DNA from: a virus
Lineage: Duplodnaviria; Caudoviricetes
Virus record (IMG/VR): IMGVR_UViG_3300007512_000037
Location: 1-61,108 of that record
Length of the DNA: 61,108 nt
Strand: one strand, 5' to 3'
The notes beneath the pieces were generated by a model. The model was not told where the DNA came from. It did no database searches and worked only from the letters and a program-made list of their open reading frames with translations. Each line of letters starts with the position of its first letter. The stretch's first letter is position 1. The translations under genes were made by a program, and so were the position numbers. Positions 22,480 through 37,562 of the stretch are shown here, one piece after another.

Positions 22480-25400
22480 ATGCCCGGCGCAGCTACAGCA
22501 ATAATAGGCGGCCTAATGGCCGGAATGCACGTAGGTCAGTTAATTTGGTATGTATCTAGTAATGTAGCATTAAACGCTTGGACTAGGCATAGAAATAAGA
22601 AAAAGCCCCAAGAAATAGGAGGGCGGCAATCCTCAGCCCCTGGAACCAATGTAACTATAGGTGATCCTATAATAGTTGTATTTGGGGTAGTTAACACAGG
22701 CGGGACTTTGTTTGACTCCCTAACCCCATCAAGCGGGGCTTACCCGGTTCACGGCGGTATAGGGTATGCCTTGCCTAGATACTTTTCAGAGGGTATAGAG
22801 CTTATAGATAGAAACTCAATAGCTTTTGATGGGCCTCAGGAATCCTTAAACTATGCAAAATTAACTAAGGATGCAGAGAGTGGAGCAGCGGTTTATGATC
22901 AAACCGAAATCAGAAAAGCTTTAAAGTTCTCTAACGATTCCAACAAAAAAGCTAATAATTTAATCCTAAAGTTTTTTAGTAAAGGAGGTTTTAGTGCGGG
23001 GTCCACTGGGGATATTCTTACTCTTTATGAAAAAATTAATCCTGATAAAAACCCTTTTGTGGTAATACCGCAAGATAGGTATTCAAGAGGCGTACCAAGC
23101 GGAGGTTATGTAAGATCACAAGGATTTTATTTAGATTACTCTTTACCTCCTATAAACGGCGAACCTGCTACACAAATACAAAAAGGTGATATTCTTATTT
23201 TTTATACTGGTAGTGATTTTGTTACTAGGGAAGTTAACGCTGTTGTTTATCCTTATGTAAGAAAGGATTATAGTGGAACTCAGGCTGAGCCTCGATTAGT
23301 AGGTACTACCACGTTCCCAAATACAGTTTTGGTTATGTTCACTACGCCTGTGCGCAGGGATACTTTACAAAAAATAAGCCATGTATGGACTAATTACACT
23401 AAAATTGACGTACTTAGATTTAATGGTGTAACAAACCGTAACCCCGATTCTTTTTTAAGGTTCTCCCAATCAAATTATAATAATAATAATCATCTTGGCT
23501 GGCTTAGTGTAGAGGTTAGAGAGCCCCTCCCCACCACAGACCCTAACGTACAGGAAAAAATAAATAAGACTTCTGTATCTACTGTGCCTAGTATTGTAGG
23601 GTTAATTGCTGATGAGTCCATGCAAATGAGCGTAACTTTGCCCACAAACGCAAACAATGAAACTTTTGCGTTTAGGGTTTCGGGTATTAGCAAAATGTGG
23701 ACTAACCCAATAGCGATTATATATGAGATTTTAACTGATCCAGGTATAGGGCTTGGGCTTGATCCTAAAATTCATATTGATATGGATAATTTTGTAACAA
23801 ACTATAATAAATGCAAAGCCACGGATACTAGTTTAAAACCATCAGGGGGGGATGAGGCTTGGAGGTTCGGCGGTTATGTTTTAGCTAATGTTCAAGAAGC
23901 TAGGGAATACATACAAGATATTCTTAATCACATTCATGGAGACTATGTATGGGATGAAGAAGGAAAATTTAAAATTTTCTTGAATGCAGATGAAGACTAT
24001 ACGCAGTCTTTCACTCAAATCGACATGCGACACATTGTTAGATCAGAGGCTAGGAAAGGGGCTTCTATAGGTTCTTTAATGTTTAAAAGCTCATATACGG
24101 AAGCTAATGATAGGTATAACGAGCTAAACGTGCGCTATATAAAACCAGATAAGGAATTTATAGCAGACTACTTTTTGAAGCTGGTAGACCTACCAGATAT
24201 TACGTTTTCTGGGACTCGTAAAACTAAGAATATGGATTTGTTAGGGTTTATGGAAGATAAATATGCCAGCAAGTCAGCTAACATCCATATGGCTAGAAAT
24301 GCTTTAGAAGATGAGTTTTTTGAAATGGAGCTTAATACTTCTAGGGTAGAGATAACAGCCGGACAGATAATAGAGTTAGTAGCTTTTGATTCTGCGGAAG
24401 ATAACGCAAACATAGAAAGCCAGTATTTTACGGTTAACTCAGTAGAGTCTGATGCTGGGGATCATATTTTAGTCTTTGATGATTCTGAGAATGTACTTAC
24501 CCATGCAGAGATAGAAGCTGGTCAATCTATAGTTAAAGGGCCGACCGTAGGGCCAATAGGAAGACCCGCTAATACTTTTGGTAAACCTAAGATATCTTGG
24601 GGTAAAAACGAGGTTACTTTAACCTTGGATGTAGACCCTACAACTTTGGGGATAGCTGTAAATTCCTGGTTTTCGGTAACGTCCGGTGGTGTTACTAGAG
24701 TTCTGTGCTGTAAAGCTTTGGGCGGTTTTTATGGCGTAACTGCCGCTCTAAGGATTAATGAACTAAAGCCTGGGGATAAGGTAGAGTCTGGAGGAGAAAC
24801 CTTAATTATAGAAGAGGTTGGGCATAAAGAAACAGGAGAGTATTTCGCTAGAGTTACCGGAACTTTTACTACCCCTCCAGTAGGTATACCCGTAAACCTA
24901 AAAAGGCTTAATGGTATTAGACAACTTAAAGAAAGTGTTTTAGCTAGGATAATGGAGGTTAAAGTAAGCCCGGAGTTAAAACTTACTGTAACAGCTAGGA
25001 AAATAGCACCAGAGGCTTATGGGGCAGAAAACCTTAACTTTATCACAGCCTCCTCGCCTGATTATGTAATAAATGATAGCTTATTTTTAACTCCGGGCGC
25101 TCCGGCTTTTACTGAGTTTAAAATATATTCCGCACAAACACCCGCAGGCAGGGGAACCTATGAAGCTTTCGCACAGTTAATAGGGGTTTCTGGTACCAAT
25201 GTAAATAGAACTATAGTTACTATTTATGCTAAAGACTTGAATTTAATGCAGGAAGATCAGGTAGTATTTACTCAAACTTTATATAGAGGGCAAAGCTCTA
25301 TTACTGCTAATCTTAGTAGGGTAACTCAATTTCTAACTGAAAATAATGTTTCTTTTTATGCTTCTGCTATTAACTATAATGAACATAATTTAAGCTCTGA

Positions 25401-28362
25401 AATTGCTTATTCCGATGGTGCTGTAGAGGATGGCGGAGTAGGGGGTTTAGTAGAGTTATCTCCCGATGATTTACCACCAGAGCCGGGCGAGTGGGATTTG
25501 GCTTACTATGATTCTGAGGCCGGTGGTGTGGTATCCGGCAAATTCGGCAAAACGATAACTTTAGCAACTAAAAAATATACGGCTGAAATATACGCCGGAT
25601 TAGAAATAAGAACCTCAGACTCTAACTGGGGGTTAAAAGCCAATAACACAGCAGACGGAAATTTAGTAACTAGAGGTCCACAGCAATTATTTTTTGAAAT
25701 TAAGGAAAATTTACCTACTACTCGTAGTGTATCTTACTTTTTGAAAACTTATAACACCGAAGGAACTTATTCTACTTTAGCCAAAGAGCTTCAATTAGTA
25801 GACTCCCAGCCGGCCTTAATTCCGAGCGGTAATATAAGCGTTAAAGAAACAGGAAATGCTATTCACATAGATGTAACTCCTTACATTAGCGGGGCTTACG
25901 AAAACGATATAGTTGAATATATACTGTACGTGGAAAACACGGGGCAGCATATAGACGGGGCGCAAGCTTCAAACGTGTATATAGAAGTTGACAGAAAGAC
26001 TACCCCCCATTTCCTATACTCGGTTCCTTACTCTTTATTTACAGGAGAAACCTTTACAGGAAATATAAAAGTAGTGGCGGAAGACAGACTTACTCCTATA
26101 GTTGCCGATAACCAAGAACCATCAGCCGCTATAGTTGCGTATACTATGCGTAAAGTGGCTTCTGCTGATGTAGCGATTGACGCTTTAGCTTCTGATTTAA
26201 GTGATAATAAATTCCTATTGGCTAATTGGGGATCGGACGAATACCGGGATAATTTTGGGTATTCTTTGGCGGTTTTAAATGCTGATAATTTTTCACAGTC
26301 TATAACGCTTAAGGCATCTACTAACTATGTCTTATCTTTTGAAGCAAAAAAGACTAATGTAAATATAGGTATTACTGTGTCTGGCAGTAATAACGGATCA
26401 GTAACAACAAGCAATACCGGAAATTTCGAGTTATTAACATTTAAGTTTACGACTCCTGTAAGCACTGTTAATAACCAAACAGTATTTACTATTACGGGCG
26501 AAGGTAATATTAAGAAAATTATGCTAAATGAAGGTACGCATGCTATGGCATATACCCTTCATGCAGACGATCAGATAGATAATGCCAGAAACCGTGAACA
26601 CAAAAAACAGCTCGCAAACGAAGTGTTAACAATTCTGTCTAATATGCAGACAGTTAATACTGATGTTGATACAGAAAGGGCTAGGATTGATGTAGCAGAA
26701 GATAATATTAATCTTAGAGTTAAAGGGGATGATGTAATTAATTCCATTAATCTTAGCGAGGAGGGTATAGCTATCGCCGGTAAAGCTCTGATAATAGATG
26801 CGGTAACTAGGTTTATAGACAGTACTGGTACTGTTTATGGTGTGGTTCTGTCGGTAGATGCCGGAAACCAGACCATAGTCGTATACAATCAGGCTAAAAC
26901 TATATGGGCTTCCGGGTTAGGTACTATGGTTTCTTATGATACAGACGGGCTACAAGCTCCTAGTGGAGGCAGTTTTGATTACGGAGATTTTGTTATAGAC
27001 CCAGGCAACGGAAGAAAGGTTACTTTAACTGGGGTTACAGGCACTTTCCCGGCAGTAGGGGATTTTTTCACTAATGATGCTAACGATAAGGGGCAAACCA
27101 AGATTAGCGGAGGTAAAATTCAAACCGATGCTATTATTGCAAATCATATATTAGCCGGAGAAATAGGGGCGGAAAAGCTAGCTGCGGAAAGTATAACCAC
27201 CAATTTCCTAAGTTTAATAGGGCAGCAGAATATAATCTTAGACAAGGATAAGGGCATTCTTATCTTTGATGCTTCCGAGACTGCGACTGTTAATACCACT
27301 ATAACTACTCAAACTAGGTTTACTTTTTCTCAGAATTATGGGCTACAAGTAGGGGATTACTTTAAAGTAGAAAACGGGAATAATAAGGGACTGGTTTTAA
27401 AAATAACAGCGGTTAATGCGGGTAATTTTACGGCAGATTTTAACCAAGTGCCTAATGACTTCTTAGATAACCAGCCTCAACCACAGCACGAAAACGTAGT
27501 ATCCGTTACTTATTACAAGGCTGCTGGAAATAATTTTATACAGATAGGGTTAGACTCCGGTAATAAGGGCGTTATACATATCGGGGATGGTAATAGCTCT
27601 ACAAAACTAAGTACATCGGGGTTGGAGATTAAAGACGGTAGTTTAAAAGTAGGAGCTGGGCAAGATTGGTTACAGTATAATGGCTCAGAGGGTTTGTGGT
27701 TAGGAACTAATACCCCAAACGATTTTACTTTTGACAAAGGAAAATTTAGGGTTGATCTTGCTGGTAATGTACAGGCTAATAGTATCGATGTTGCAGCATT
27801 AAACCAATTTTTTGACGGTATTACTGTTTCCCAGAGTTTTGTGGATATTTGGAATAACCCAATGAGCGGGTACGACTATGTACCTGTTCTACGTACTGCT
27901 GTTAACTTACCCCCTGAGGTAGTACAAACATCGAATTTAAAAAGCATTTTTGTAACTACCGCCTTCCAAGTATCTATGAATACTAGTATAGTACGAGATG
28001 TTAGCCCTATTGACATAAGAATAACCATAGCTCAACCAGACCCTAATGCCCCAGAAGACATTATACCCGTTATAAGAACCGGCTTTGATGTAAATGTTAC
28101 TTTTCCTTATACTGGCGGGGTAACTTGGAATAATAGGGTGGTTACAGGTTTAATTAGCGGATCAATTACAGACGCTTTGCAAAACTATTCAGGGTCTAAT
28201 AATTTTGGTCAACTAAGTGATTTAACTCCGGGGCAAATGTATTTAATAAATTTTGACATCTTTCCTTTAAACCCCCCTCCTCCTTTATTAGCCATACAAC
28301 AAGTTCGAGTTTTTTCTGCTACCGCACACTTAAGGTTTCTAACTAAAACAGACTTAATATAG
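22480..28362 (+). CDS. tail tip / host specificity protein (gpJ-like)
   Basis: 1960 aa; WTNPIAIIYEILTDPGIGLG motif, beta-rich repeats, INSINLSEEGI and ANHILAGEIGAEKL segments common in tail tips. Confidence 0.88.
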   Translation: MPGAATAIIGGLMAGMHVGQLIWYVSSNVALNAWTRHRNKKKPQEIGGRQSSAPGTNVTIGDPIIVVFGVVNTGGTLFDSLTPSSGAYPVHGGIGYALPRYFSEGIELIDRNSIAFDGPQESLNYAKLTKDAESGAAVYDQTEIRKALKFSNDSNKKANNLILKFFSKGGFSAGSTGDILTLYEKINPDKNPFVVIPQDRYSRGVPSGGYVRSQGFYLDYSLPPINGEPATQIQKGDILIFYTGSDFVTREVNAVVYPYVRKDYSGTQAEPRLVGTTTFPNTVLVMFTTPVRRDTLQKISHVWTNYTKIDVLRFNGVTNRNPDSFLRFSQSNYNNNNHLGWLSVEVREPLPTTDPNVQEKINKTSVSTVPSIVGLIADESMQMSVTLPTNANNETFAFRVSGISKMWTNPIAIIYEILTDPGIGLGLDPKIHIDMDNFVTNYNKCKATDTSLKPSGGDEAWRFGGYVLANVQEAREYIQDILNHIHGDYVWDEEGKFKIFLNADEDYTQSFTQIDMRHIVRSEARKGASIGSLMFKSSYTEANDRYNELNVRYIKPDKEFIADYFLKLVDLPDITFSGTRKTKNMDLLGFMEDKYASKSANIHMARNALEDEFFEMELNTSRVEITAGQIIELVAFDSAEDNANIESQYFTVNSVESDAGDHILVFDDSENVLTHAEIEAGQSIVKGPTVGPIGRPANTFGKPKISWGKNEVTLTLDVDPTTLGIAVNSWFSVTSGGVTRVLCCKALGGFYGVTAALRINELKPGDKVESGGETLIIEEVGHKETGEYFARVTGTFTTPPVGIPVNLKRLNGIRQLKESVLARIMEVKVSPELKLTVTARKIAPEAYGAENLNFITASSPDYVINDSLFLTPGAPAFTEFKIYSAQTPAGRGTYEAFAQLIGVSGTNVNRTIVTIYAKDLNLMQEDQVVFTQTLYRGQSSITANLSRVTQFLTENNVSFYASAINYNEHNLSSEIAYSDGAVEDGGVGGLVELSPDDLPPEPGEWDLAYYDSEAGGVVSGKFGKTITLATKKYTAEIYAGLEIRTSDSNWGLKANNTADGNLVTRGPQQLFFEIKENLPTTRSVSYFLKTYNTEGTYSTLAKELQLVDSQPALIPSGNISVKETGNAIHIDVTPYISGAYENDIVEYILYVENTGQHIDGAQASNVYIEVDRKTTPHFLYSVPYSLFTGETFTGNIKVVAEDRLTPIVADNQEPSAAIVAYTMRKVASADVAIDALASDLSDNKFLLANWGSDEYRDNFGYSLAVLNADNFSQSITLKASTNYVLSFEAKKTNVNIGITVSGSNNGSVTTSNTGNFELLTFKFTTPVSTVNNQTVFTITGEGNIKKIMLNEGTHAMAYTLHADDQIDNARNREHKKQLANEVLTILSNMQTVNTDVDTERARIDVAEDNINLRVKGDDVINSINLSEEGIAIAGKALIIDAVTRFIDSTGTVYGVVLSVDAGNQTIVVYNQAKTIWASGLGTMVSYDTDGLQAPSGGSFDYGDFVIDPGNGRKVTLTGVTGTFPAVGDFFTNDANDKGQTKISGGKIQTDAIIANHILAGEIGAEKLAAESITTNFLSLIGQQNIILDKDKGILIFDASETATVNTTITTQTRFTFSQNYGLQVGDYFKVENGNNKGLVLKITAVNAGNFTADFNQVPNDFLDNQPQPQHENVVSVTYYKAAGNNFIQIGLDSGNKGVIHIGDGNSSTKLSTSGLEIKDGSLKVGAGQDWLQYNGSEGLWLGTNTPNDFTFDKGKFRVDLAGNVQANSIDVAALNQFFDGITVSQSFVDIWNNPMSGYDYVPVLRTAVNLPPEVVQTSNLKSIFVTTAFQVSMNTSIVRDVSPIDIRITIAQPDPNAPEDIIPVIRTGFDVNVTFPYTGGVTWNNRVVTGLISGSITDALQNYSGSNNFGQLSDLTPGQMYLINFDIFPLNPPPPLLAIQQVRVFSATAHLRFLTKTDLI

Positions 28363-28371
28363 GATATAAAT

Positions 28372-31300
28372 ATGAGTAATTTTGATTCAGAAGACCTGCA
28401 AACAATAGGCCAGATTCAGACTGATATAAGCACTAATACTCAAACCTTATCTACTGTTCAAGCTGATGTTCTAGCTCAGGATTATCGAAACTATGTTAAA
28501 GACACGCAGCATAATTTCGTACTGCTCGGTTGTTTTGTAACTCTAGGGACTGCTGCAAATAAGATATCTATTGGCAAAGGCTCGGATACTAAAAATAGAT
28601 TCTATATTCAGGGTAAGTTAATAGAAATAAATGATTCAGCGGATTTTGTAACTTTCTCTTACCCGGCCACAGGACCACGATACGATATTATTTATATCAA
28701 ATCAGACGGGACTTTCGGCGTACACGCAGGCTCAGAAGGGGGCATACAGCCTAATTTCGCAGCCATTACTAGTACGCAGCTACCTGTCGCACAGGTGTTA
28801 GTCCCGCAGTCTAGCGGCGCTATAATTATCACTCAAACTAGGCAAATGTACCGGGTAGGGTATTATAACAGTCAGCAATTTTTACCCGGCACTATTTTTG
28901 AAGTTCCAGTTGATATACCAGAGAATACGGTTACTTCTGGTATTTGGTATAAGGGGTTGGGGGGGTTCATAACGAAAATGGCGGGGTTTAATGAACCTAA
29001 TGTTACGGCATCTTCGTCCGGGGTTTTAGGCAGAATTGCTGTATGGACAGATGCAGATTCTTTAGCCGCCGGGATGCTAACTGATGATGGAACGACTATA
29101 CACTTTAAAGCCGGTAATAATAACAACTGGAAAGCTACTTCATCGGGGCATTTAGAGCCTAGTGCTGATAATGCACACGATATAGGGTCTGTAGGGCTTT
29201 GGGCTAGAAGCGTGTTCACTTGTGGCATTTCCGGGATGATGGATTTCGCATCAGCTCAAAACTTAATTACTTTTAATATCTCGTTTACTAACCATTACAA
29301 GATGGATACTGCTGCCTTTTTTCCGGTAGGTGCTAGAGATTTAGGCAAAACTGCTTCGGGTTTTAAAGACCTATATTTTACCAGTGAGCTAAAAAGAGGC
29401 GGGAATAATACTATATTTGACGGTTGGAGTAATAACAAAGCTCAAATAAATTGGAATAATGTAATAAACAGACCTTCTGAGCTTGCTTATTTAACCGGAG
29501 TCACAAGCTCAATACAAACTCAACTAGACGGTAAAACGTCAACATCAGGAGGGGTTTTATCCGGGAATATCGGACGCTCGGCTCATAGTTCGGGTCATCT
29601 CGAAGGCTCTTATAGCAATGTCGGTGTAAACGGAGCAAAAACTAATCCAATCTACACAATAGGAAGTGCTTATAACCCAACAGATACAGCATTATCACCA
29701 AATATGTATGGAATTGGGTTTGCTAGTTGTGCTCCAGTCAGCGCAGGAGGCGCAGGAGGTTCTTTTCTTTCGTCGTTTAACAACTTAGGAAATTGGGGGT
29801 TATATGTGGCCGCCGATGGAGATGCCAGAATTTTCCTGGATGGAACTTATGGACATGTGATGGGGCTTGGTCGGACTTTCATGTGGTCAGGAACATCAAC
29901 AAATCCAACTTATTCTTTTCGTACTGATATGAATACCGGAATGTATAATCCTGGGGATGGGAGACTTGGTTTTGTTTGTAATGCGGTCAAACGATTAGAG
30001 ATTACTGCGAGTGGTCATTTAATACCAAATGGGGCCAATGTTTGTGATATAGGAGATGTAACAAATTATTTCCGAACTATATATGCCCAAACATTTCAAG
30101 AAGGCGGCACAGCTTTATCTTCTAAATACTTAGCTTTATCTGGGGGTAATCTTATTGGTCAAGTAAGTATAGGCTTTGCCGTTGACGGGGGAGCCCAAAG
30201 CCTAATACTAAACAATTCTAAACCCAGTGTGGTTAGTTCGTTAAATGAAACAGTAGAACAAGTATTTCAGTTTGGTGGAGTAGATGCTTGTATTTTGTCT
30301 GCTACTAAAGATGAAGATTTTACTTCTACCGCCAAGGAAACATCCTCTTTTAGTATATCTACTAAACTCGACGGGGTTATGACCCCTATTATTAAAGTGG
30401 GCGGGCTTTCCGGAGTTTTGAATTTCGGTGCAAATAATACCGTATCGGGCGCATACGGAACAGCTTTCGGTACAAATATTATTGTATCTGGTGTATACGG
30501 AACAGCTTTCGGGCGTAAAATAAATATTTCTGGTGATTATTCTTTCGGGATCAGCTTAAATGAACCCGTCTCTGATTACCTTCTTACTCAAGCAAACACA
30601 ATGGCTGTTATGGGTGGGAAGATGGGGGTTGATGTTCTTTCTCCTGTTGAAAAACTAGAAGTAGGCGGTGCAATTAAAGTAGGTACTACTGCCACCGCTT
30701 CCCCCGCTAACGGTGTAATTAGATATGAAAATCAAGATTTTGAAGGCTATAAAGAAGGTGCTTGGGTTTCTTTATCTGGTGGTGCTGGTGGTGCTGGTGG
30801 TGCTGGTGGGGGTACACAATATCCATCCAAATTTACAGACTTAGAGGCTATCAATTCAAAGTGGAAAGGGCCAATGGCTGTTAAAGCCAATGCAGACTGG
30901 ATTTGTGTTGGCGGGGGTTACACGTATGGCGCAACTCCAAATAACAGGAATTGGGTAGCTGTTTTCAATAAAGCCACAGGGGTATGGGCAGATGTGTCTG
31001 GAATTAGTATAGCGGCAGTTGGGTTTTTGGCCTTAGATGGGGATATTTTATGGGCTAAAAACTATAATGGATATGAAAATAATGTTCATAGGATTGATTT
31101 AAACACTCTTGCCGTTACTGACACTATTAATGCTATAGCTACCGCATCACAAGTCGGGGGAATAGCGCAGGATGCTACTTACGTATATTTTTTATACGGG
31201 CAAAGATCGGGAGCTTATATTTCAAAAATTACCCGCATAAATAAAACTACTAAAGTGAAAGACCCCACAGAAATAGATTTGGGGTATGAGTACATAGTCG

Positions 31301-31866
31301 GCGGGTGTGTATACGGCGGGTTTCTTTATTGTACTACTTATACTGACGGGGGAAGGATACATAAATTAGACTTGTCTACCTGGGGGGCTTCACCGACTGT
31401 TACATCAATTTCAACAGCTAGTATCCACGTTAGTATTGATCGTCCCGTTTATCCGGTTGCTGGTAGTGACGGGTTTATTTATTGCATGAATTTTGATAGT
31501 GATGCCGTGCAAAAAATGTTTAAAATTCCAGTAAATAATTTCACAATAGGCGGGGCAGTAGTTATTGATTTGCCAAATAACATTGAAACTCATGAAATGG
31601 GGGTCGGGGTCGGGGCTGGTGGTAAAATTTGGGTAGGTATGAATTATTTTCTCAATGGGCCTACCCATTGGTGTCAGATAAATATGGCTACTAATGCGGT
31701 TTCTGATTTTAGTGTAATAAATGAGGTTCCTGGTGCAGAACAAAAAGGGGATTTAAGATTCGACGGAGTGGATGAAATAAATGTTTACGCTGTTCGTCGA
31801 TCGGAAAATTTTAGTAATTATAGAAGCGATTTAATAACTTTACCAATAAATGGAACTTTCACATAG
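28372..31866 (+). CDS. tail fibre / receptor-binding protein
   Basis: 1164 aa Gly/Ser/Thr-rich mosaic; PRYDIIYI N-terminal attachment motif, LTGVTSSIQTQLDGK, YadA-like repeats, propeller-like C-terminus. Confidence 0.85.
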   Translation: MSNFDSEDLQTIGQIQTDISTNTQTLSTVQADVLAQDYRNYVKDTQHNFVLLGCFVTLGTAANKISIGKGSDTKNRFYIQGKLIEINDSADFVTFSYPATGPRYDIIYIKSDGTFGVHAGSEGGIQPNFAAITSTQLPVAQVLVPQSSGAIIITQTRQMYRVGYYNSQQFLPGTIFEVPVDIPENTVTSGIWYKGLGGFITKMAGFNEPNVTASSSGVLGRIAVWTDADSLAAGMLTDDGTTIHFKAGNNNNWKATSSGHLEPSADNAHDIGSVGLWARSVFTCGISGMMDFASAQNLITFNISFTNHYKMDTAAFFPVGARDLGKTASGFKDLYFTSELKRGGNNTIFDGWSNNKAQINWNNVINRPSELAYLTGVTSSIQTQLDGKTSTSGGVLSGNIGRSAHSSGHLEGSYSNVGVNGAKTNPIYTIGSAYNPTDTALSPNMYGIGFASCAPVSAGGAGGSFLSSFNNLGNWGLYVAADGDARIFLDGTYGHVMGLGRTFMWSGTSTNPTYSFRTDMNTGMYNPGDGRLGFVCNAVKRLEITASGHLIPNGANVCDIGDVTNYFRTIYAQTFQEGGTALSSKYLALSGGNLIGQVSIGFAVDGGAQSLILNNSKPSVVSSLNETVEQVFQFGGVDACILSATKDEDFTSTAKETSSFSISTKLDGVMTPIIKVGGLSGVLNFGANNTVSGAYGTAFGTNIIVSGVYGTAFGRKINISGDYSFGISLNEPVSDYLLTQANTMAVMGGKMGVDVLSPVEKLEVGGAIKVGTTATASPANGVIRYENQDFEGYKEGAWVSLSGGAGGAGGAGGGTQYPSKFTDLEAINSKWKGPMAVKANADWICVGGGYTYGATPNNRNWVAVFNKATGVWADVSGISIAAVGFLALDGDILWAKNYNGYENNVHRIDLNTLAVTDTINAIATASQVGGIAQDATYVYFLYGQRSGAYISKITRINKTTKVKDPTEIDLGYEYIVGGCVYGGFLYCTTYTDGGRIHKLDLSTWGASPTVTSISTASIHVSIDRPVYPVAGSDGFIYCMNFDSDAVQKMFKIPVNNFTIGGAVVIDLPNNIETHEMGVGVGAGGKIWVGMNYFLNGPTHWCQINMATNAVSDFSVINEVPGAEQKGDLRFDGVDEINVYAVRRSENFSNYRSDLITLPINGTFT
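30778..30810 (+). repeat. 9-nt tandem repeat (GGTGGTGCT)x3 encoding a Gly/Ala hinge
   Basis: Directly visible; encodes GGAGGAGGAGG. Confidence 0.85.
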
Positions 31867-31876
31867 GAGTATATAA

Positions 31877-32209
31877 ATGGACCCAGTTGATGCCCTAAGA
31901 ATTGAAAAATCAAAGGAACAAAAAGAGCTTGATTTACCTATTCTTGTTAAAAAGAAAAAGGCTCAATTATCTAAAATCTTGCATGATGCCCTAGTCTCGT
32001 CCGACTGGGTTGATACTTCTAAATTTTTAAAAAAATCTAGTGAAGATAAACACAAAGTGATTAGGAAAAACAGGAAAGCTCAGTATGACATAATTCGTAA
32101 TCTAAAAGATGAATTATGCAAATGTGATTATGATTCTGCGTTGGATTTTTATATAGAGCAAAAGCTTATATCCACAGGATTTTATGAATTGACTTATGAT
32201 TTTAGTTAG
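31877..32209 (+). CDS. hypothetical protein, possible fibre assembly chaperone
   Basis: Follows fibre; ALVSSDW motif resembles fibre-associated proteins. Confidence 0.55.
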   Translation: MDPVDALRIEKSKEQKELDLPILVKKKKAQLSKILHDALVSSDWVDTSKFLKKSSEDKHKVIRKNRKAQYDIIRNLKDELCKCDYDSALDFYIEQKLISTGFYELTYDFS

Positions 32210-32218
32210 GAGATTAAA

Positions 32219-32602
32219 ATGAACATTATTGAACCTGCCAGCGAACTTACACAAAATGCTTTGAATGTAGATGGATGGAAACTTAAAGAAAGGGCCATTC
32301 CTAAGGGGCCAAGAAAACTCAGGAATTTGATTTCTATGCCTAACGATTTCCCAGATAATTGTGAGCCTACCTATGACTTCCATAAAGATGAATTCTCATT
32401 CGGGGAAGTGAAAGATGGGACAAAGCTTAATAGGCATCATAGAGATTATTTACACGGCCAACTTCACCGGTTAATGCACCTTGCAGATTACTTTAAAAAT
32501 AAAGATCAATTTGGTATTCAAAAGATTACTACTTCGTCCACGGATTTAGAAACTGATAAAAATGAAGTTACTGAAAACTTCCAGATTTACCAAAAATCTT
32601 AA
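32219..32602 (+). CDS. hypothetical protein
   Basis: 127-aa ORF with AGGAG SD. Confidence 0.7.
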   Translation: MNIIEPASELTQNALNVDGWKLKERAIPKGPRKLRNLISMPNDFPDNCEPTYDFHKDEFSFGEVKDGTKLNRHHRDYLHGQLHRLMHLADYFKNKDQFGIQKITTSSTDLETDKNEVTENFQIYQKS

Positions 32603-32651
32603 ATACTAATTTTCTACTATTGGCTACTAATTTTAGTAGAAGGACGTTACC

Positions 32652-33689
32652 ATGCCTCTACCGTTAGAAGAGGGGAAAGGACTTTTCGTGAATAGGGATA
32701 ACGCTATGCGGCACATTTTAGTAGTAGAGGATAGTGAAGGCTTCGCTAACCTAATCAAAAAACGATTCCAGGTAGATGCAAACACCAGAGTAACGATATT
32801 AGACTCCGGGGAAAAAGTAATTGATTTTCTAAGTAGGTACAACGGTGTCCACGTCTTAGTTGTGGATATGAACCTACCCGGAATGAATGGTATAGATTTA
32901 TACCTAGCTCTAAAAGACCTCTACAATCGAACCGACTCAAAAATCACTAAAAAATATCACAAAATGATGGTATTGGTGAGTGAAGATTATGAGGCAATGT
33001 CAGCCGCCGAAGCTCATAAAATCGGCAGAGTTAAAAAACCTTGCTTTGATGATCCCGAACAAGAAGCTAAAGAATGGTTTACATTTATGCAAATCATTGA
33101 GCAGAAAATAGCTCAAACTGAATCATTTCGGACAATCAAAGATATAGAAAAAAATGTTGGTTCATTGAGAATATTGTTCGATGATCTAAGCAAGGATACG
33201 ACCAGTAAATTACAAGAAGCAAGAAACGAAACTAAAAAAGATATTCAAGCTCTTAGAGCTTCTACCGATGAACAATTCGCAGGAATCAATTCTAAGCTGG
33301 ATATCATGACCGAAAATCAAAAAGCGTTTCAGGAATCTAGTTCTTGTGTTACTGCTATTTCTAGTGATGTAGAAATAGAACCGGGTCAGCATGAAAATGT
33401 TATTAAAATGTTACACGGAATAACTAAGCTCATTGAAAATAATCCAGAAAAATCGCTTAAAGTACATAACGTGGAAATGCAAACTTCTGAATCCTATAAA
33501 GAAGTAATCCGCAATACTCCATTAACAGTAAATAACCTTGGGACTATTGTAGGTTCGCTGTTTTTAAAAAGTATTTTTTCCTGGGGCGGGAGAATTGCTT
33601 GGTTATGTTTCTTGTTTCTTTTGTATAAGTTTCAGCCTAAGGCTTTGCCTTTTTTTAAAGCTACTTATACTATTTTAATGGCCCCGTAA
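32652..33689 (+). CDS. response-regulator receiver (REC) domain + coiled coil + C-terminal membrane segment
   Basis: ILVVEDS, LVVDMNLPGMNGIDL (phospho-acceptor Asp), VLVS, KKP; heptad region; IAWLCFLFLLY hydrophobic helix near C-terminus. Confidence 0.88.
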   Translation: MPLPLEEGKGLFVNRDNAMRHILVVEDSEGFANLIKKRFQVDANTRVTILDSGEKVIDFLSRYNGVHVLVVDMNLPGMNGIDLYLALKDLYNRTDSKITKKYHKMMVLVSEDYEAMSAAEAHKIGRVKKPCFDDPEQEAKEWFTFMQIIEQKIAQTESFRTIKDIEKNVGSLRILFDDLSKDTTSKLQEARNETKKDIQALRASTDEQFAGINSKLDIMTENQKAFQESSSCVTAISSDVEIEPGQHENVIKMLHGITKLIENNPEKSLKVHNVEMQTSESYKEVIRNTPLTVNNLGTIVGSLFLKSIFSWGGRIAWLCFLFLLYKFQPKALPFFKATYTILMAP

Positions 33690-33753
33690 AAATTTTAATA
33701 TCTATGGTAACATGGGTATAGTAATCACTTGATACGACTATAAGGAGGCTAAA

Positions 33754-34089
33754 GTGCCTAAACTAAACCTAACCCAAGAGATCAAAGCTTTGGACTATGA
33801 GACTACCCTTAAGGACAGTAATTCAGAAGATGATGTAACTATTAAATCTGTCCTTACTATGTCTCTCAGAAATGAGGGGCAGCAATTAACCAACCATCAA
33901 ACCGGTAAGATTGATACCGATGCTAGATATAATCAAGCAAAGCTCTTAGAGAAAATCATGAAATTAAATGGGGATGTGGAAATTGATCTAACACACGAAC
34001 AGTTAAAACTGTGTGAAAACGCCATACTAAATAATCCCATGATCGAAGGTTTTGTTGCTGCTCAAGCAGTAGATATGATTAGGGGGTAG
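33754..34089 (+). CDS. hypothetical phage protein
   Basis: TAAGGAGG SD before GTG; 111 aa. Confidence 0.75.
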   Translation: MPKLNLTQEIKALDYETTLKDSNSEDDVTIKSVLTMSLRNEGQQLTNHQTGKIDTDARYNQAKLLEKIMKLNGDVEIDLTHEQLKLCENAILNNPMIEGFVAAQAVDMIRG

Positions 34090-34091
34090 GT

Positions 34092-34682
34092 GTGCATTTT
34101 GATAAATGTATGCAAATAGTATGGGGCAATGAGGGGGTTTACTTTAACGAAGACGGAACCCTAAAAAAGGATGGAACCTATACCGCAGACGGAACGAGTA
34201 CAAAATTTGGCATAGCGTATAAGTTTAATAAGGCCGAACTTTTAGAGTTTGGTATTAATAGCCCAGAACAGATGAACCAGCTTGGGGTTACCGCTGCTGC
34301 CGAAATTTACAAACGTAAATATTGGCACAAGTGCGGAGCAGAGACAATAAAAGATTATGCTCTTGCATACCTGATTTTTGATTGTGCTGTAAACCAGGGC
34401 ATAGGAGCCTCTATAAGGATAGTGCAGGAGGCAATAAATACATTATCGGATAAGAAACCCATCAAAATAGACGGGGGCTTAGGGCCAGTTACCAAGGCTA
34501 AAATTTTAGAAGTTTCTGCTAATTATTCTCATAGTTTTGCTAAGTTAGTTAGGATTCTCAGAGAACGAGAATACTACCAATCTTTATTTAACAGGTGCTT
34601 AAAAGCCCCGGACGAGGCAGAAGCTCTATTTCAAAGATTTGAAACCTCCTGGATGCGTAGACTAACAAAGGTAGAGCTGTGA
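34092..34682 (+). CDS. endolysin, glycoside hydrolase family 108
   Basis: NEGVY, TKFGI, AAEIYKRKYW, FDCAVNQG, IDGGLGPVT and WMRR motifs. Confidence 0.92.
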   Translation: MHFDKCMQIVWGNEGVYFNEDGTLKKDGTYTADGTSTKFGIAYKFNKAELLEFGINSPEQMNQLGVTAAAEIYKRKYWHKCGAETIKDYALAYLIFDCAVNQGIGASIRIVQEAINTLSDKKPIKIDGGLGPVTKAKILEVSANYSHSFAKLVRILREREYYQSLFNRCLKAPDEAEALFQRFETSWMRRLTKVEL

Positions 34683-35350
34683 ATATATTCAAAAAAGCTT
34701 TAAAAGTTCTACGCAAAGGAGCCGACTCTGGGTTAATGGATTTCATACCTGGGGGTAAGGTTTTATCTGGTATTAGCAGTATCTTAGGCAAAGGAAAAAT
34801 AACCGATGCCAGGGGTAATGTGATAGAAGGGGGGAAGTTTACCCTTACCCCTGAGCAAGGCAAGGAGCTTCAAGTAAAGAGTATGCAAATAAGCTTGCAG
34901 GAACTTGAAGAGAACCATGAGCATATAGAAAAAAAGATGAGGCTAGAAATTGATCACTTTGAGGCGGAAACCCAAAGAACAGTAGCTTTTGAGGGTAGTT
35001 TCAAAGATATACCAGAAGAAGCAAAGCTTAAGCGATCTATGATTAGGCCCGATATTGTTAGGGATGTTTGGAATTTAGGTAAATGGATGTTCGGCGTAGA
35101 GGGTATTATACAGGTAGGAGTTCTAAGCTTTTCCATGTATAAGGCAGCTTCAATAGGGGGTAGTAGTGAAATAACCCAGGAAGCTGTTAATGCCTCTTTA
35201 CAGGCATTAGAATCGTTTAAGTATAGGCTGTACCTACCTTGGGACTTCTATAGTTGGGTATTTTCAGGTACAGTTATGGTCTTTTTTGGAAGCAGAACCT
35301 TAGATAAAGGTGTTGCTACATATAAAAAGGGCGATAGTGCGGGGGTTTAA
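34679..35350 (+). CDS. holin (GTA 3TM-like)
   Basis: Overlaps endolysin; IRP followed by hydrophobic segments and C-terminal FFGSRTLDK motif. Confidence 0.72.
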   Translation: MNIFKKALKVLRKGADSGLMDFIPGGKVLSGISSILGKGKITDARGNVIEGGKFTLTPEQGKELQVKSMQISLQELEENHEHIEKKMRLEIDHFEAETQRTVAFEGSFKDIPEEAKLKRSMIRPDIVRDVWNLGKWMFGVEGIIQVGVLSFSMYKAASIGGSSEITQEAVNASLQALESFKYRLYLPWDFYSWVFSGTVMVFFGSRTLDKGVATYKKGDSAGV

Positions 35351-35973
35351 TGCCTAATAGAACAGAGATTTTTTTAGATAAAGCGGAATCGGAAATTTTA
35401 TCTTTCGATTTCTCTGCCCTGCTCAGCGCAGGTGAGGCATATATAGCTTCGACTTACGCAGCTTTGCTTAATCAGGCTCTTACCTATACGGCAATTAAGC
35501 CAGGAACAGCAGGGAACGCAGTTACTATTACCCTAGTTGACCCAGGTACATTACAAGCAACTACTACTTTTTCTGACTCAGGGAATGCTATAACTATAAC
35601 CCTTAGGCACGACGGGGCCGCAATCACGGCTACGGCAACCAACTTAGTTTCTGACTTTGCTTCTGCCCCTTCTTCTGTAAAGGCTTTGTTAAATATTACT
35701 GGGTCCGGGGCCTCGGTGCTTATGGCTGTGAGCAGTACGGCTTTATCTGGTGGAGTAGACAATTTAACGATTACTTGTTATGAGGTTTCTGGGACTACAG
35801 TAATAGATAAGACAGGGACTACGCTTCCGACTTTGCCGGTAAATATAATTAGTAATAAAGTAGAAACTAGGTTTGCCGGGGGGGACTCAACTAGGACTTA
35901 TAGTGTTGAAGTACTAGTAAATACAGATAAGGGGCGGGTACTAAAAGCAGTACAGTACGTTAGTATTTACTAA
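35350..35973 (+). CDS. fibre-tail adaptor-like structural protein with inserted beta domain
   Basis: N-terminal ILSFDFSALLSAGE and C-terminal FAGG...YSVEVLVNTDKGRVL flank a Thr/Ala/Gly-rich insert. Confidence 0.6.
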   Translation: MPNRTEIFLDKAESEILSFDFSALLSAGEAYIASTYAALLNQALTYTAIKPGTAGNAVTITLVDPGTLQATTTFSDSGNAITITLRHDGAAITATATNLVSDFASAPSSVKALLNITGSGASVLMAVSSTALSGGVDNLTITCYEVSGTTVIDKTGTTLPTLPVNIISNKVETRFAGGDSTRTYSVEVLVNTDKGRVLKAVQYVSIY

Positions 35974-36335
35974 TGGGAGTAAAGAATTCTACATATTTTA
36001 AAATCCCGCAAAAAGCAGATGCTATTTTGGAAGATGGATCAATTTATTTTGATCCCGCCGATAAATTAAAAGTAACTGATTACAATTCAGTTGAAAAAAC
36101 AGTAGCTTTTACTGGGGAAAATTCGGTAACATTTATTACTGGACCTGCAACTACGCATATAATTAATCACGGACTCGGTAAAGAAGACTTGGTTTATCAG
36201 GTAAGACTAGATAACGGGGGGAGTCCCGGACAATTACTAGAAGTCGAATCTGAGCCTACAGTAGGGAGTGAAACTACAGCAATCACCCATAGAACGGTGC
36301 AATCTTTAAAGCTTCACACTACTATTTTAAATTAA
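35973..36335 (+). CDS. putative virion structural protein
   Basis: HIINHGLG motif similar to TITHNLN in the next gene. Confidence 0.55.
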   Translation: MGVKNSTYFKIPQKADAILEDGSIYFDPADKLKVTDYNSVEKTVAFTGENSVTFITGPATTHIINHGLGKEDLVYQVRLDNGGSPGQLLEVESEPTVGSETTAITHRTVQSLKLHTTILN

Positions 36336-36356
36336 TTATGACTTTGGAGGTCTAAA

Positions 36357-37562
36357 ATGGCTAAGCGTTTTGGTTCAAATATTCTTTTTCCACTCAATTC
36401 GAGTGATCCCGGCACACCTACGGAGGCGGAAGTCTGGTATAACAGCACTTTGGATAAGTTCAAGTACCAGGACGGTGCTGGAACTAAGGTTATCATGAGT
36501 GAGGAGCTTCTTGCTTCAACCACAGGAGGCGAAGGTTCCGGGCTTGTTGGGTTTTCCGATCCTACCAGTAACTTTACTGCTACTACTGTCCAAGCTGCCC
36601 TTGCTGAGATTAGAGATGATCTTCTTAGCGCAGCTAATGGTAATGGTGCTAGTACCGTTGGAGTAGAGGATTCAGTAGGAAACTTTACTGGGACGGATGT
36701 AGAAGCTGTATTGGCAGAAATTGATCTACGTATTGATGGTATCACTACTGATCGAGACTTCGTTAATTCCGTTAACTTAGACGTTAACTATCTAATGAAT
36801 GCTACGGGAACTCCCGCAGCAGGTTCAGGTAAAACAGAAGGTGAAATTCTGATCAATGCCGTTGATGAAAAGTATTGGAAAGTAGTTTCCGGTGCTTGGG
36901 CAGATCAAGGAGCCTTAGGTACTAAGCGTTTCGTTTTCAAAACAAGCGGTACCGGTACTGGAATGGCTAATGTTACTGCCACCAGCAATAACAAAATTTA
37001 TGACGGAGAATTTTTCTCTACTGCCTTTACCCCTACGATTGGAACTACTTTCGATCATGAAGCAGATCAAAGACAGTGGACGTTTAATAATTCAAGTGTC
37101 TGGGTTAAAACCGGGGCCAGAATTAATCACAATGATCATCCAGATTTGCAGGGCGGGGGAGCAGGAGACTACAACCACCTTACAACCGCAGAGCTAAATC
37201 TACTTCAAGAGATTGATAGTACGGCAGCTACAGAGGGGGCTACTAGAATTGCTCTGGATGCGGCTAGTACGGTTGGTGGTGTTTATTCTAATGTTCAAGC
37301 AGCTCTTACAGCCTTGTATGACGCAGGAGTAAATGCAACCGATACTTATACCGAAGGGGCAACTACCTTAGTAGCCACGGTTGCAGAAACTATTACCCAT
37401 AATCTTAATAGCCGGTATGTTCACGTAACGGCTTATACAGACAACGCTGGTAATCCACAGAATGAGGAAGCGCTTGAAATTGCTGTTACAGGTTTAAACA
37501 CCATTACAGCTACTTCTGTTCCTGGCGGAGCTTATCACTTTGTTGTATCTGCAAAAGAGTAA
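36357..37562 (+). CDS. putative fibre protein
   Basis: Three imperfect repeats of type GASTVG..D..GNFT.T.V.A.LAEI; strong SD; followed by terminator. Confidence 0.7.
   Translation: MAKRFGSNILFPLNSSDPGTPTEAEVWYNSTLDKFKYQDGAGTKVIMSEELLASTTGGEGSGLVGFSDPTSNFTATTVQAALAEIRDDLLSAANGNGASTVGVEDSVGNFTGTDVEAVLAEIDLRIDGITTDRDFVNSVNLDVNYLMNATGTPAAGSGKTEGEILINAVDEKYWKVVSGAWADQGALGTKRFVFKTSGTGTGMANVTATSNNKIYDGEFFSTAFTPTIGTTFDHEADQRQWTFNNSSVWVKTGARINHNDHPDLQGGGAGDYNHLTTAELNLLQEIDSTAATEGATRIALDAASTVGGVYSNVQAALTALYDAGVNATDTYTEGATTLVATVAETITHNLNSRYVHVTAYTDNAGNPQNEEALEIAVTGLNTITATSVPGGAYHFVVSAKE

What the first reader, a model, noticed from the sequence alone, without database searches (positions are those of the whole stretch)
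32652..33689. Membrane-anchored phosphorylatable receiver domain near the lysis genes
Seen: REC domain with all key residues (ED acidic pair, phospho-acceptor D, S, KP), then a coiled coil and a C-terminal hydrophobic helix; no DNA-binding output and no histidine kinase in the window; located two genes before endolysin and holin; three in-frame starts (32652, 32688, 32706) each have SD-like sequences. Known: coiled coil plus terminal TM proteins (XhlA/BhlA type) occupy this position in many lysis cassettes. Inference: a lysis-timing or membrane effector controlled by host two-component phosphorylation or acetyl-phosphate, which could link lysis to host state. Alternatively a phosphate sink moron.
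Basis: partly seen in the sequence, partly recalled or inferred. Interest (0 to 1): 0.75.

Follow-up and report, generated by a model that had tools for sequence, protein, structure and literature searches.

The report
Membrane-anchored receiver protein of a marine phage
A marine phage carries a gene for a two-component-type phosphate-receiving domain attached by a long helix to a membrane anchor; this combination is rare and undescribed, and it sits near the cell-bursting genes, but no evidence yet shows that it controls bursting.

Summary
ORF 32652-33689 (+, 345 aa) starts with a genuine receiver (REC) domain. It scores over the Pfam cut-off, models confidently as a (beta-alpha)5 fold, and has all five active-site residues (E26, D27, D72, S110, K129). 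Helix alpha5 runs on as a helix of about 95 residues, and the protein ends in hydrophobic helices. The 61-kb viral record has no histidine kinase, HisKA or Hpt.

A search of 1.84 billion representative proteins found about 10 relatives, all with the same REC, stalk and C-terminal hydrophobic layout. All come from metagenomes. None was found in 50,697 phage records, in IMG/VR, or in 185,579 species genomes by the patterns used. The anchor is a clear transmembrane segment in 9 of 11 aligned rows. It is borderline in this protein.

The lysis interpretation is not established. The GH108 endolysin is real, but the "holin" is an orphan with only weak support, and XhlA does not match. The one other retrievable context has a PHP-domain gene next to the homologue and no lysis gene.

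Best reading: a phosphorylatable receiver protein, probably anchored by its C-terminus, encoded among the late genes, that acts at the membrane. Lysis timing is the leading guess at about 25%, with a tethered phosphate sink close behind. I class it as a new variant of a known kind, of moderate interest.

The parts
32652..33689 (+). Whole ORF, 345 aa: REC, helical stalk and C-terminal hydrophobic anchor
   Evidence: An identical protein was seen on 6 contigs, the longest 76,667 bases.
32652..32708 (+). N-terminal extension (residues 1-19) holding the alternative in-frame starts GTG 32688 and ATG 32706
   Evidence: SD-like motifs lie before all three starts. In homologue P0151, 14 of 17 residues at positions 3-19 are identical. 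An R-D-N motif before beta1 is shared by 5 of 10 family clusters. This favours a start upstream of 32706.
32709..33053 (+). Receiver (REC) domain, residues 20-134. Active-site codons: E26/D27, D72 (32865-32867), S110 (32979-32981), K129 (33036-33038)
   Evidence: PF00072 scores 39 bits against a cut-off of 30.2. AF2 block mean pLDDT is 92-97 with a dip to 71 at residues 91-100. Foldseek hits to solved REC domains. Active-site table.
33054..33341 (+). Continuous helix, residues 135-230: alpha5 of REC running on as a stalk with heptad character
   Evidence: DSSP on the AF2 model, with block pLDDT 85-97. Heptad analysis in 10 family members. W142 is invariant.
33393..33467 (+). Second helical segment, residues 248-272, flanked by low-confidence linkers
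   Evidence: helices 248-263 and 265-272; pLDDT is under 50 at 233-242 and 269-291.
33528..33680 (+). C-terminal hydrophobic region, residues 293-343: the putative membrane anchor, made of two short hydrophobic helices and an amphipathic tail
   Evidence: It is at the homologous position to clear TM segments in relatives and is conserved in P0151.
33754..34089 (+). Intervening 111-aa ORF of unknown function, with no hydrophobic segment
   Evidence: No family in Pfam, PHROGs or NCBIfam at E 0.1 or better; PADLOC gave only two marginal hits to PD-Lambda-5_B at E about 0.007. Best hydropathy window 0.96.
34092..34682 (+). GH108-type endolysin
   Evidence: PF05838 E=7.7e-12, phrog_315 E=6.1e-23. 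tblastn matches in 61 phage records, several annotated as endolysin.
34679..35350 (+). 223-aa orphan whose start overlaps the endolysin stop; a holin candidate with weak evidence only
   Evidence: Overlap. Atlas feature likeness of 0.91-0.92 to clusters where 26-28% of members carry PF11351, with recognition below the usual mark. No HMM hit. Only itself found in the protein collection. Best hydropathy window 1.2.

Best explanation
The gene encodes a phosphorylatable receiver protein, probably anchored to the membrane by its C-terminus, and lies in the phage's structural/lysis gene block. It is therefore presumably expressed late, although no transcription data exist.

Shown:
- An N-terminal REC domain with a complete active site.
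- Helix alpha5 continuing as a helix of about 95 residues.
- A C-terminal hydrophobic region at the position where relatives have clear transmembrane segments.
- No kinase, HisKA or Hpt in the phage record.

Inferred:
- The REC domain stays in the cytoplasm and is tethered to the inner membrane by the C-terminus.
- D72 is phosphorylated by a host histidine kinase, by a phosphotransfer protein, or by acetyl phosphate.
- As in other receivers, phosphorylation remodels the alpha4-beta5-alpha5 face.
- Because alpha5 is continuous with the stalk, the change passes to the stalk and anchor. It alters self-association or partner binding at the membrane.

The output would then be a membrane event late in infection. 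From the position, two genes before the endolysin, the leading candidate is control of lysis timing according to host signalling state. That step is a guess.

My odds: REC, stalk and anchor architecture 0.85; truly phosphorylated 0.65; role in lysis timing about 0.25.
For: REC identity and fold.

Active site: complete in the window protein and in 9 of 11 aligned family rows, which is 8 of 10 clusters. S110, K129 and P130 are invariant, and D72 is present in 10 of 11 rows.

Stalk: alpha5 continuous to residue 230 at high pLDDT. Heptad pattern in all 10 members examined, with a/d core fraction 0.40-0.75 against 0.18-0.28 elsewhere.

Anchor: a C-terminal hydrophobic segment is present in all 11 rows and reaches 1.83 or more in 9 of them. 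It is conserved between the window protein and P0151, which are 67% identical overall.

No kinase: no HATPase_c, HisKA or Hpt in the record, with controls positive.

Late-gene setting: same strand as tail-fibre genes (phrog_6162 on 28372-31866) and the endolysin, with gaps of 49 and 64 bases. Promoter-like and terminator-like sites are not above shuffled expectation. GC and GC3 resemble the neighbours.

Persistence: the gene is identical over the parts that contigs cover in 4 further marine runs from 2 studies, one of which may be the source campaign. Coverage is complete in X2 and X3 and partial in X4 and X5.
Against: - In this protein the hydrophobic segment is short and broken by K306 and R314. 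Its best window of 1.42 is below the usual 1.6, so membrane insertion is inferred mainly from relatives.
- The window protein, P0151 and P0002 have Arg instead of the aromatic switch residue at K-3. Seven other rows have Phe there. The position's role is taken from passages of PMC12632262.
- Two relatives have degenerate sites: P0006 has D-N at the acidic pair and Glu at the acceptor, and P0008 has E-S at the acidic pair. The family function may therefore not strictly need phosphorylation.
- The single other context (L002) shows a PHP-domain neighbour and no lysis gene.
- The neighbouring 'holin' is unverified.
- The lysis genes themselves lie inside a block of structural-looking genes, so adjacency may mean only 'late gene'.
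- The host is unknown and there are no expression data.
Confidence: 0.4

Rival explanations
1. Membrane-tethered phosphate sink or decoy. The REC domain has no output of its own. Anchored next to the host's membrane histidine kinases, it drains or competes for phosphoryl groups and so blunts a host two-component response, such as an envelope-stress or defence-related one, during infection.
For: No output domain is recognisable after the REC in Pfam, PHROGs, NCBIfam or PADLOC, and the atlas finds nothing usable for residues 135-345. The active site is complete. The membrane anchor would place it beside membrane kinases (inference). Phages are reported to interfere with host two-component systems, for example PIT4 of phage LSL4 (PMC10714779; I saw only the search listing and the start of the abstract).
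Against: Host-takeover genes are usually early, whereas this gene lies within the structural/lysis block. A sink does not need a conserved 95-residue stalk, nor the conserved family motifs outside the active site. Two relatives with degenerate sites could not act as sinks.
Confidence: 0.25
2. Phosphorylation-independent scaffold. The REC fold serves only as a dimerisation or protein-binding module on a membrane-anchored stalk. Possible roles include superinfection exclusion, anchoring of a replication or assembly complex, or another membrane function unrelated to host signalling.
For: P0006 and P0008 lack parts of the active site yet keep the architecture. The window subclade lacks the aromatic K-3 residue. 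In L002 the neighbour is a PHP-domain, replication-type gene. Pseudo-receivers with non-phosphoryl mechanisms are common in bacteria (PMC12632262, passages read).
Against: All five catalytic residues are kept in 9 of 11 rows across sequences only 20-33% identical to the window protein (apart from P0151 at 67%). S, K and P are invariant. This is hard to explain without selection for phosphoryl chemistry.
Confidence: 0.2
3. Soluble response-regulator-like protein. The C-terminal helices pack as a small helical bundle or bind a partner rather than inserting in the membrane.
For: The best hydropathy window is 1.42 with an embedded Arg. The uncharged run is only 11 residues in the window protein and in P0151. 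AF2 draws three short helices with 10-residue block mean pLDDT of 63-85 over residues 291-345.
Against: Relatives have uncharged hydrophobic runs of 15-34 residues (seven of the nine; P0002's run is broken by charges) at the same position, with windows of 1.83-2.71. The segment is conserved in P0151.
Confidence: 0.12

Closest known systems
Single-domain (stand-alone) response regulators such as CheY, DivK and CpdR
   Same: A REC domain with a complete active site and no enzymatic or DNA-binding output, so it would act through protein contacts. The comparison with the named proteins is from general knowledge.
   Different: This protein carries about 210 further residues: a stalk continuous with alpha5 and a C-terminal hydrophobic anchor. 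It is phage-encoded, and the record holds no kinase gene at all.
REC-helical stalk-output regulators, for example WspR-type REC-GGDEF proteins (PDB 3bre and 3i5a appear among the fold hits)
   Same: Alpha5 leads into a long helix that would carry the phosphorylation signal to what lies beyond.
   Different: No GGDEF or other catalytic domain follows. The stalk ends in a membrane anchor.
XhlA/BhlA-type lysis-cassette proteins (coiled coil plus C-terminal TM)
   Same: A similar overall shape in the C-terminal half, and a position near an endolysin.
   Different: The XhlA model PF10779 finds nothing in the window. XhlA-type proteins are short and lack a REC domain (recalled). There is no evidence of homology.
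Other virus-encoded REC proteins
   Same: BFVD holds phage proteins with a REC fold. Examples are 'Response regulator protein' of Myoviridae sp. ctrnx29 (298 aa), Alteromonas phage vB_AmeM_PT11-V22 (149 aa) and uncultured Caudovirales 'TtrR' and 'CheY-like' proteins. PHROGs 731, 5982 and 20458 match the REC part.
   Different: Only the REC part aligns (about 130-170 columns, 14-20% identity). None is a sequence relative: tblastn against 50,697 phage records found nothing real even at E=10. I could not inspect those proteins for a membrane anchor.
cREC domain of jumbo phages (Iyer et al. 2021, PMC7824862; passages read)
   Same: A REC-fold domain encoded by phages.
   Different: cREC is described as never being linked to histidine-kinase signalling and as linked to NAD+/ADP-ribose-processing genes. 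Here the domain matches the classical PF00072 over its cut-off. The BFVD 'cyclic-phosphate processing receiver' hit is far weaker (E=0.059) than classical receivers.
Signal-regulated lysis timing: T4 holin T with antiholin RI, and the regulatory region of N4 pinholin gp63
   Same: The idea that a regulatory part attached to a membrane lysis protein sets lysis timing. The N4 preprint (PMC12642591, passages read) names such a region of gp63 'Receiver domain'.
   Different: The N4 'Receiver domain' is a short region named for its genetics. It is not a two-component REC. No homology to T or gp63 was tested or seen. The T4 details are recalled.
P0199 cluster (325 aa, metagenomic)
   Same: An independent protein with REC, a long helical region and a terminal hydrophobic segment (window 2.22, uncharged run of 25 residues at the very C-terminus).
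   Different: It is related only through the REC domain (E=7.7e-4 to the family profile). It lacks the family motifs, and its context and origin are unknown.

Membership tests
Two-component receiver domain (Pfam PF00072) | Profile score above the curated cut-off | tested here: met
   39 bits against 30.2. 41 bits in the six-frame search.
Two-component receiver domain (Pfam PF00072) | (beta-alpha)5 fold | tested here: met
   The AF2 model has strands 20-25, 45-50, 68-72, 106-110 and 125-128 with alternating helices. Block mean pLDDT is 92-97 apart from 71 at residues 91-100. Foldseek target TM-scores to solved receivers are 0.66-0.80.
Two-component receiver domain (Pfam PF00072) | Five active-site residues: the acidic pair, the acceptor Asp, Ser/Thr and Lys (definition from PMC12632262) | tested here: met
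   E26, D27, D72, S110 and K129 by alignment with canonical receivers and by position at strand ends.
Two-component receiver domain (Pfam PF00072) | Actual phosphorylation on the conserved Asp, and a cognate phosphodonor | not testable with these tools
   No kinase, HisKA or Hpt in the record. The host is unknown.
Pseudo-receiver (atypical receiver) | Lacks at least one of the five active-site residues | tested here: not met
   The window protein has all five. Relatives P0006 and P0008 do qualify as pseudo-receivers.
XhlA (PF10779) lysis-cassette membrane protein | Match to the family profile | tested here: not met
   No match at E of 10 or less anywhere in the window, while the controls did match. 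No Pfam hit at E of 0.1 or less.
Holin or antiholin | Small membrane protein with one or more transmembrane segments and a charged C-terminus, matching a holin family | tested here: not met
   The protein is 345 aa with a 290-residue soluble part. It has no holin family in Pfam or PHROGs, and PF11351 is absent from the window. Several relatives do have a TM followed by a Lys/Glu-rich tail, so a holin-like mode of action is not excluded.
Holin or antiholin | Conserved adjacency to an endolysin in relatives | tested here: inconclusive
   Adjacent in the window. Not adjacent in the one other context, which is only 2,390 bases. The other contigs could not be fetched.
Jumbo-phage cREC | Linked to NAD+/ADP-ribose or cyclic-nucleotide processing genes and never to two-component systems (PMC7824862) | tested here: not met
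   The neighbours are tail-fibre genes, unknown ORFs and the endolysin. The classical REC profile matches. The BFVD cREC-named hit is weak. No cREC profile was available for a direct test.
C-terminally anchored (tail-anchored) membrane protein | A single hydrophobic segment close to the C-terminus that can span the membrane | tested here: inconclusive
   The window protein has a best 19-residue hydropathy of 1.42 with an Arg inside the window. Nine of 11 family rows score 1.83-2.71. No dedicated topology predictor was available.

The most novel reading that the evidence does not exclude
The protein is itself part of the hole-forming machinery: a phosphorylation-gated holin or antiholin. The cytoplasmic REC domain reads a host histidine-kinase signal, for example envelope stress caused by superinfecting phages or by nutrient state. 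Through the rigid alpha5 stalk it switches the C-terminal membrane helices between an inert and an oligomerising or holin-binding state. The phage would thus advance or delay lysis according to host signalling. This would be a lysis-inhibition device wired into two-component phosphotransfer.
Probability: 0.12. Interest if true: 0.85.

Novelty: new variant of a known kind. Interest (0 to 1): 0.55.

Why it matters
Receiver domains are the universal phospho-switch of bacterial signalling. In the published cases I could read, phages drop the receiver instead of keeping it. For example, gut-phage spo0A homologues retain only the DNA-binding part (PMC10294663, passages read).

Here a phage keeps an intact receiver, discards any classical output and ties it to the membrane. 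That implies the phage listens to, or interferes with, host phosphotransfer at the membrane late in infection.

If the link to lysis were real, it would be a new way of setting lysis timing by host physiological state. If the protein is a sink, it would be a new form of host-signal sabotage. In either case, REC joined to a stalk and a C-terminal anchor is a domain combination I could not find described. Four literature searches returned no paper on a membrane-anchored response regulator of this type.

The practical limits are that the family is tiny (about 10 clusters among 1.84 billion representatives), the phage is uncultured and marine, and the host is unknown.

Tried and rejected
Context of homologues:
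The longer contigs carrying P0003 (100,943 bases), P0006 (19,664), P0151 (9,550), P0155 (8,469), P0002 (6,552) and the 76,667-base version of this phage could therefore not be read.
- Three IMG/VR scans with the window protein, the alignment A2 and P0151 found no relative.
- A fourth IMG/VR scan with the terminase found no close relative of the phage.
- The single metagenome scan gave one locus, L002.
- Two scans of species genomes gave no family member. The first gave nothing. The second gave 9 loci, all generic REC matches covering query residues 1-95 only.
- The nearest deposited phage by terminase (MT121964.1, 34% identity) has no REC gene.

Homodimer job: no verdict. The score was 0.07 against a mark of 0.42 and the controls were not run. 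It is reported here only and is not used as evidence.

Sequencing runs: no RNA holder was listed, so nothing can be said on expression. Laying contigs of 4 runs showed no sequence variants in the gene where contigs cover it, so no test of selection was possible.

The palindrome CTACTAATTTTAGTAG at 32624-32639, just upstream of the start, occurs exactly once. The counts with mismatches are not above chance: 4 found, and 16 of 100 shuffles reach that number. No repeat family in 31800-35400 looked meaningful.

The V-ATPase_G (E=0.0014, below cut-off) and tape-measure PHROG (E=0.021) matches on the stalk were judged to be coiled-coil noise. The PADLOC hit C3a156 (E=0.0053) was judged the same way.

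The atlas search with residues 135-345 gave no usable feature hit. It returned only long-helix structural look-alikes with query TM-scores of 0.39-0.55.

The 223-aa neighbour found only itself in the 5.8-billion collection, no tblastn match in phages at E of 1 or less, and no PF11351 hit.

The search of earlier findings gave nothing on this gene.

Eighteen of the nearest non-family REC hits were fetched and read by eye for a C-terminal anchor. None appeared to have one, and several are multi-REC proteins. No hydropathy calculation was run on them.

Supplementary files of the papers were not opened. The datasets of PMC12632262 might list comparable architectures.
Full report
WHAT IS THERE. The window is a single IMG/VR virus record of 61,108 bases, estimated to be about 70% complete, with 39.6% G+C. 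A T4-type large terminase lies at 3393-5024; its best deposited relatives are only 34% identical. A long run of same-strand head and tail genes follows, ending with tail and tail-fibre proteins at 22480-31866. Next come two small unknown ORFs, the gene in question (32652-33689), a 111-aa unknown ORF, a GH108 endolysin (34092-34682), a 223-aa orphan whose start overlaps the endolysin stop, and further unknown, structural-looking ORFs. The replication module begins near 39.8 kb. The same DNA stretch, unchanged where contigs cover it, occurs in contigs of four further runs labelled marine or seawater metagenome. These come from two studies, one of which may be the source campaign.

THE OBSERVATION. 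The ORF is open for 345 codons. Residues 22-92 match Pfam PF00072 at 39 bits, over the 30.2-bit cut-off. The six-frame search gives 41 bits. Some NCBIfam response-regulator models align through residue 134. An AlphaFold2 model was built on a 23-row alignment and has mean pLDDT 81. It gives a canonical (beta-alpha)5 domain for residues 20-134 with block mean pLDDT 92-97, dipping to 71 at residues 91-100. Foldseek places it among solved receiver domains, including XynC, FixJ, CheY, PmrA and CpxR, with target TM-scores of 0.66-0.80.

By the definition given in PMC12632262 (passages read), a true receiver has five residues: an acidic pair, the acceptor Asp, a Ser/Thr and a Lys. Here they are E26/D27, D72, S110 and K129. 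Each sits at the C-terminal end of beta1, beta3, beta4 or beta5 in the model.

Helix alpha5 does not stop. It continues as one helix from 135 to 230, with block pLDDT 85-97. Its heptad bias is moderate, with core residues at 0.40 of a/d positions against 0.24 elsewhere. Low-confidence linkers and a helix at 248-272 follow. The protein ends in helices 293-309, 311-327 and 329-343.

The hydrophobicity of that end is only borderline. The best 19-residue Kyte-Doolittle window is 1.42, with R314 inside it and K306 just upstream.

The record contains no HATPase_c, HisKA or Hpt and no second REC, while the control genomes were positive. The three in-frame starts each have an SD-like motif. Conservation favours translation from upstream of 32706, most simply from 32652. 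Fourteen of 17 residues at positions 3-19 are identical in the 67%-identical homologue P0151, and an R-D-N motif before beta1 is shared by 5 of 10 clusters.

A SMALL FAMILY. The word-indexed search of 5.8 billion proteins found only the protein itself. The exhaustive phmmer search of 1.84 billion representatives found 312 proteins at E of 0.001 or less. Almost all were generic REC matches. Nine stood out with matches extending past the REC domain, or, for the 63-aa fragment P0004, with 81% identity. They are P0002, P0003, P0005, P0006, P0007, P0008, P0013 and P0117, of 263-319 aa, and the fragment, whose full-length cluster mate P0151 (342 aa) is 67% identical to the window protein.

The eleven aligned rows represent 10 clusters. 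They share invariant R20, N64, L75, L87, K88, Y102, S110, K129, P130 and W142. They also share a family-specific insertion with a K-K-Y-H-K-type motif just before beta4 and an E/D-W motif at the start of alpha5. All have a heptad-patterned helix after the REC domain (10 of 10 examined). All have a hydrophobic segment near the C-terminus. In 9 of 11 rows the best window is 1.83-2.71, and seven of those nine have uncharged runs of 15-34 residues (P0002's run is broken by charges). The two weak rows are the window protein (1.42) and P0151 (1.56).

The full catalytic set is present in 9 of 11 rows. P0006 has D-N at the acidic pair and Glu at the acceptor position, and P0008 has E-S at the acidic pair. 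The aromatic residue at K-3 is Phe in 7 rows, Arg in the window protein, P0151 and P0002, and Thr in P0006.

All members come from metagenome-type sources (JGI/IMG, ENA, Logan) apart from one NCBI record on a 2,070-base contig. The only names attached are generic 'CheY-like chemotaxis protein'. No member was found in 50,697 deposited phage records, in IMG/VR, or in one genome for each of 185,579 species by the patterns used. Eighteen of the closest non-family REC matches that I fetched are soluble proteins, several of them multi-REC, and by eye none has a C-terminal anchor.

IS IT A LYSIS GENE? The endolysin call is sound: PF05838 at E=7.7e-12, phrog_315 at E=6.1e-23, and tblastn matches in 61 phage records, mostly phages of Gram-negative hosts and several annotated as endolysin.

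The 223-aa ORF that follows overlaps the endolysin stop. It has no hit in Pfam, PHROGs, NCBIfam or PADLOC, no relative in the 5.8-billion collection, and no relative in phages. Its most hydrophobic window is 1.2. The only positive sign is an atlas feature likeness of 0.91-0.92 to clusters in which 26-28% of members carry PF11351 (GTA_holin_3TM). The recognition value was below the usual mark, and the PF11351 profile itself finds nothing in the window. 'Holin' is therefore a reasonable guess, not a finding.

The one homologue whose surroundings I could read is P0117 on L002, which is 2,390 bases long. It is followed by an ORF with a PHP domain (E=1e-5, exactly at the cut-off) and preceded by an unknown ORF. 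Neither resembles anything in the window. That is 0 of 1 further contexts showing a lysis neighbour, over a very short span.

In the window the lysis genes sit inside a block of structural-type genes with no sign of separate promoters or terminators. The composition of the REC gene is like that of its neighbours. The safest statement is that this gene lies among the late genes, next to the endolysin region. A functional tie to lysis is not shown.

HOW IT MOST LIKELY WORKS. The shown facts are an intact receiver, a rigid continuation of alpha5, a terminal hydrophobic region that is a clear transmembrane segment in most relatives, and no phage kinase.

From the established behaviour of receivers, phosphorylation at the Asp shifts the Ser/Thr and the alpha4-beta5-alpha5 surface, which is often a dimer interface. 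I infer that a host kinase, a phosphotransfer protein or acetyl phosphate loads D72. The change would then travel down the stalk to alter self-association or partner binding of the membrane end. The REC domain must be cytoplasmic to be phosphorylated, so the protein would be anchored by its C-terminus.

The stalk, if straight, is on the order of 14 nm. That estimate assumes about 0.15 nm of rise per residue and was not measured. What sits at that distance from the membrane is unknown.

My odds for the downstream role are as follows:
- Lysis timing, about 0.25. This fits the late position, the membrane location and the proximity to the endolysin.
- Tethered phosphate sink, about 0.25.
- Phosphorylation-independent scaffold, about 0.2.
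- Not membrane-bound at all, about 0.12.

The boldest reading that the data allow is a phosphorylation-gated holin or antiholin, at about 0.12. Several relatives have a transmembrane segment followed by a Lys/Glu-rich tail, which is reminiscent of holin C-termini.

COMPARISON WITH WHAT IS KNOWN. The protein is a member of the classical receiver family. All the testable defining features are met; phosphorylation itself is untestable here. It is not a pseudo-receiver, although two relatives are. It is not an XhlA member and does not match any holin family.

It differs from the divergent cREC of jumbo phages, which is described as tied to NAD+/ADP-ribose processing genes and never to kinase signalling (PMC7824862, passages). 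Other phage-encoded REC-fold proteins exist in BFVD and PHROGs, but they align only over the REC part.

The 'Receiver domain' of N4 pinholin gp63 is a genetic name for a short region and is not this fold (PMC12642591, passages). Gut-phage spo0A homologues keep the output domain and drop the receiver (PMC10294663, passages), which is the opposite of what is seen here.

An unrelated metagenomic cluster, P0199, shows the same REC, helix and terminal-TM layout. The architecture may therefore have arisen more than once.

I searched the literature for four membrane-anchored/-bound/-associated and transmembrane 'response regulator' phrases (0 papers) and for 'receiver domain' with 'tail-anchored' (9 papers, 6 listed, none on such a protein by title; one checked). 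I also searched 'receiver domain' with holin, endolysin and phage (4 papers, 3 listed) and response regulator, C-terminal transmembrane, receiver domain and coiled-coil (2 papers). None returned a description of this type. The library lacks most subscription journals, so this is not proof of absence.

VERDICT. The architecture is, as far as I could find, undescribed, and it occurs in an uncultured marine phage. The lysis-timing interpretation is attractive but rests on one genome's gene order, and the single other context does not repeat it. I rate it a new variant of a known kind, with interest 0.55.

Noticed in passing
window 34679-35350 (+): A 223-aa orphan ORF whose GTG start overlaps the endolysin stop. 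It has two weakly hydrophobic C-terminal segments. Its atlas features resemble clusters that partly carry GTA_holin_3TM, but no HMM or sequence relative was found.
   Followed up: partly
proteins P0199 and P0207-P0211 (no locus): A separate metagenomic cluster of 325-aa proteins with an N-terminal REC, a long helical region and a hydrophobic segment at the very C-terminus. It is related to the phage family only through the REC domain. The same architecture may have arisen independently.
   Followed up: partly
L002 1383-2390 (+): Directly downstream of the homologue P0117 lies an ORF, open at its 3' end, with a PHP domain at residues 184-319 and a 180-residue N-terminal part with no family match.
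   Followed up: partly
window 32624-32639: A near-perfect 16-base palindrome (7-bp arms) lies 13 bases upstream of the ATG at 32652 and overlaps a short direct repeat. It occurs exactly once in the window, and its frequency with mismatches is not above chance.
   Followed up: yes
window 54424-54627 (+): A 67-aa ORF in an otherwise gene-poor gap, with a strongly hydrophobic C-terminal segment (window 1.99), overlapping the next gene by about 50 bases. It is a possible small membrane protein and the only strong TM candidate outside larger genes that I looked at.
   Followed up: no
proteins P0009, P0015, P0022 (no locus): The nearest non-family matches are 415-422-aa proteins made of three REC domains. 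The last REC of each seems to carry an insertion between alpha3 and beta4, like the phage family. They may mark the cellular lineage from which the phage REC was taken.
   Followed up: no
window 35350-37562 (+): The genes just after the endolysin region (207, 120 and 401 aa) have no PHROG match and look structural or fibre-like. The lysis genes therefore appear embedded within the virion-gene block instead of forming a separate cassette.
   Followed up: no
window 34250: A single T>C difference inside the endolysin gene in one of the four marine runs laid. Otherwise the 3.5-kb stretch is identical across the runs.
   Followed up: no
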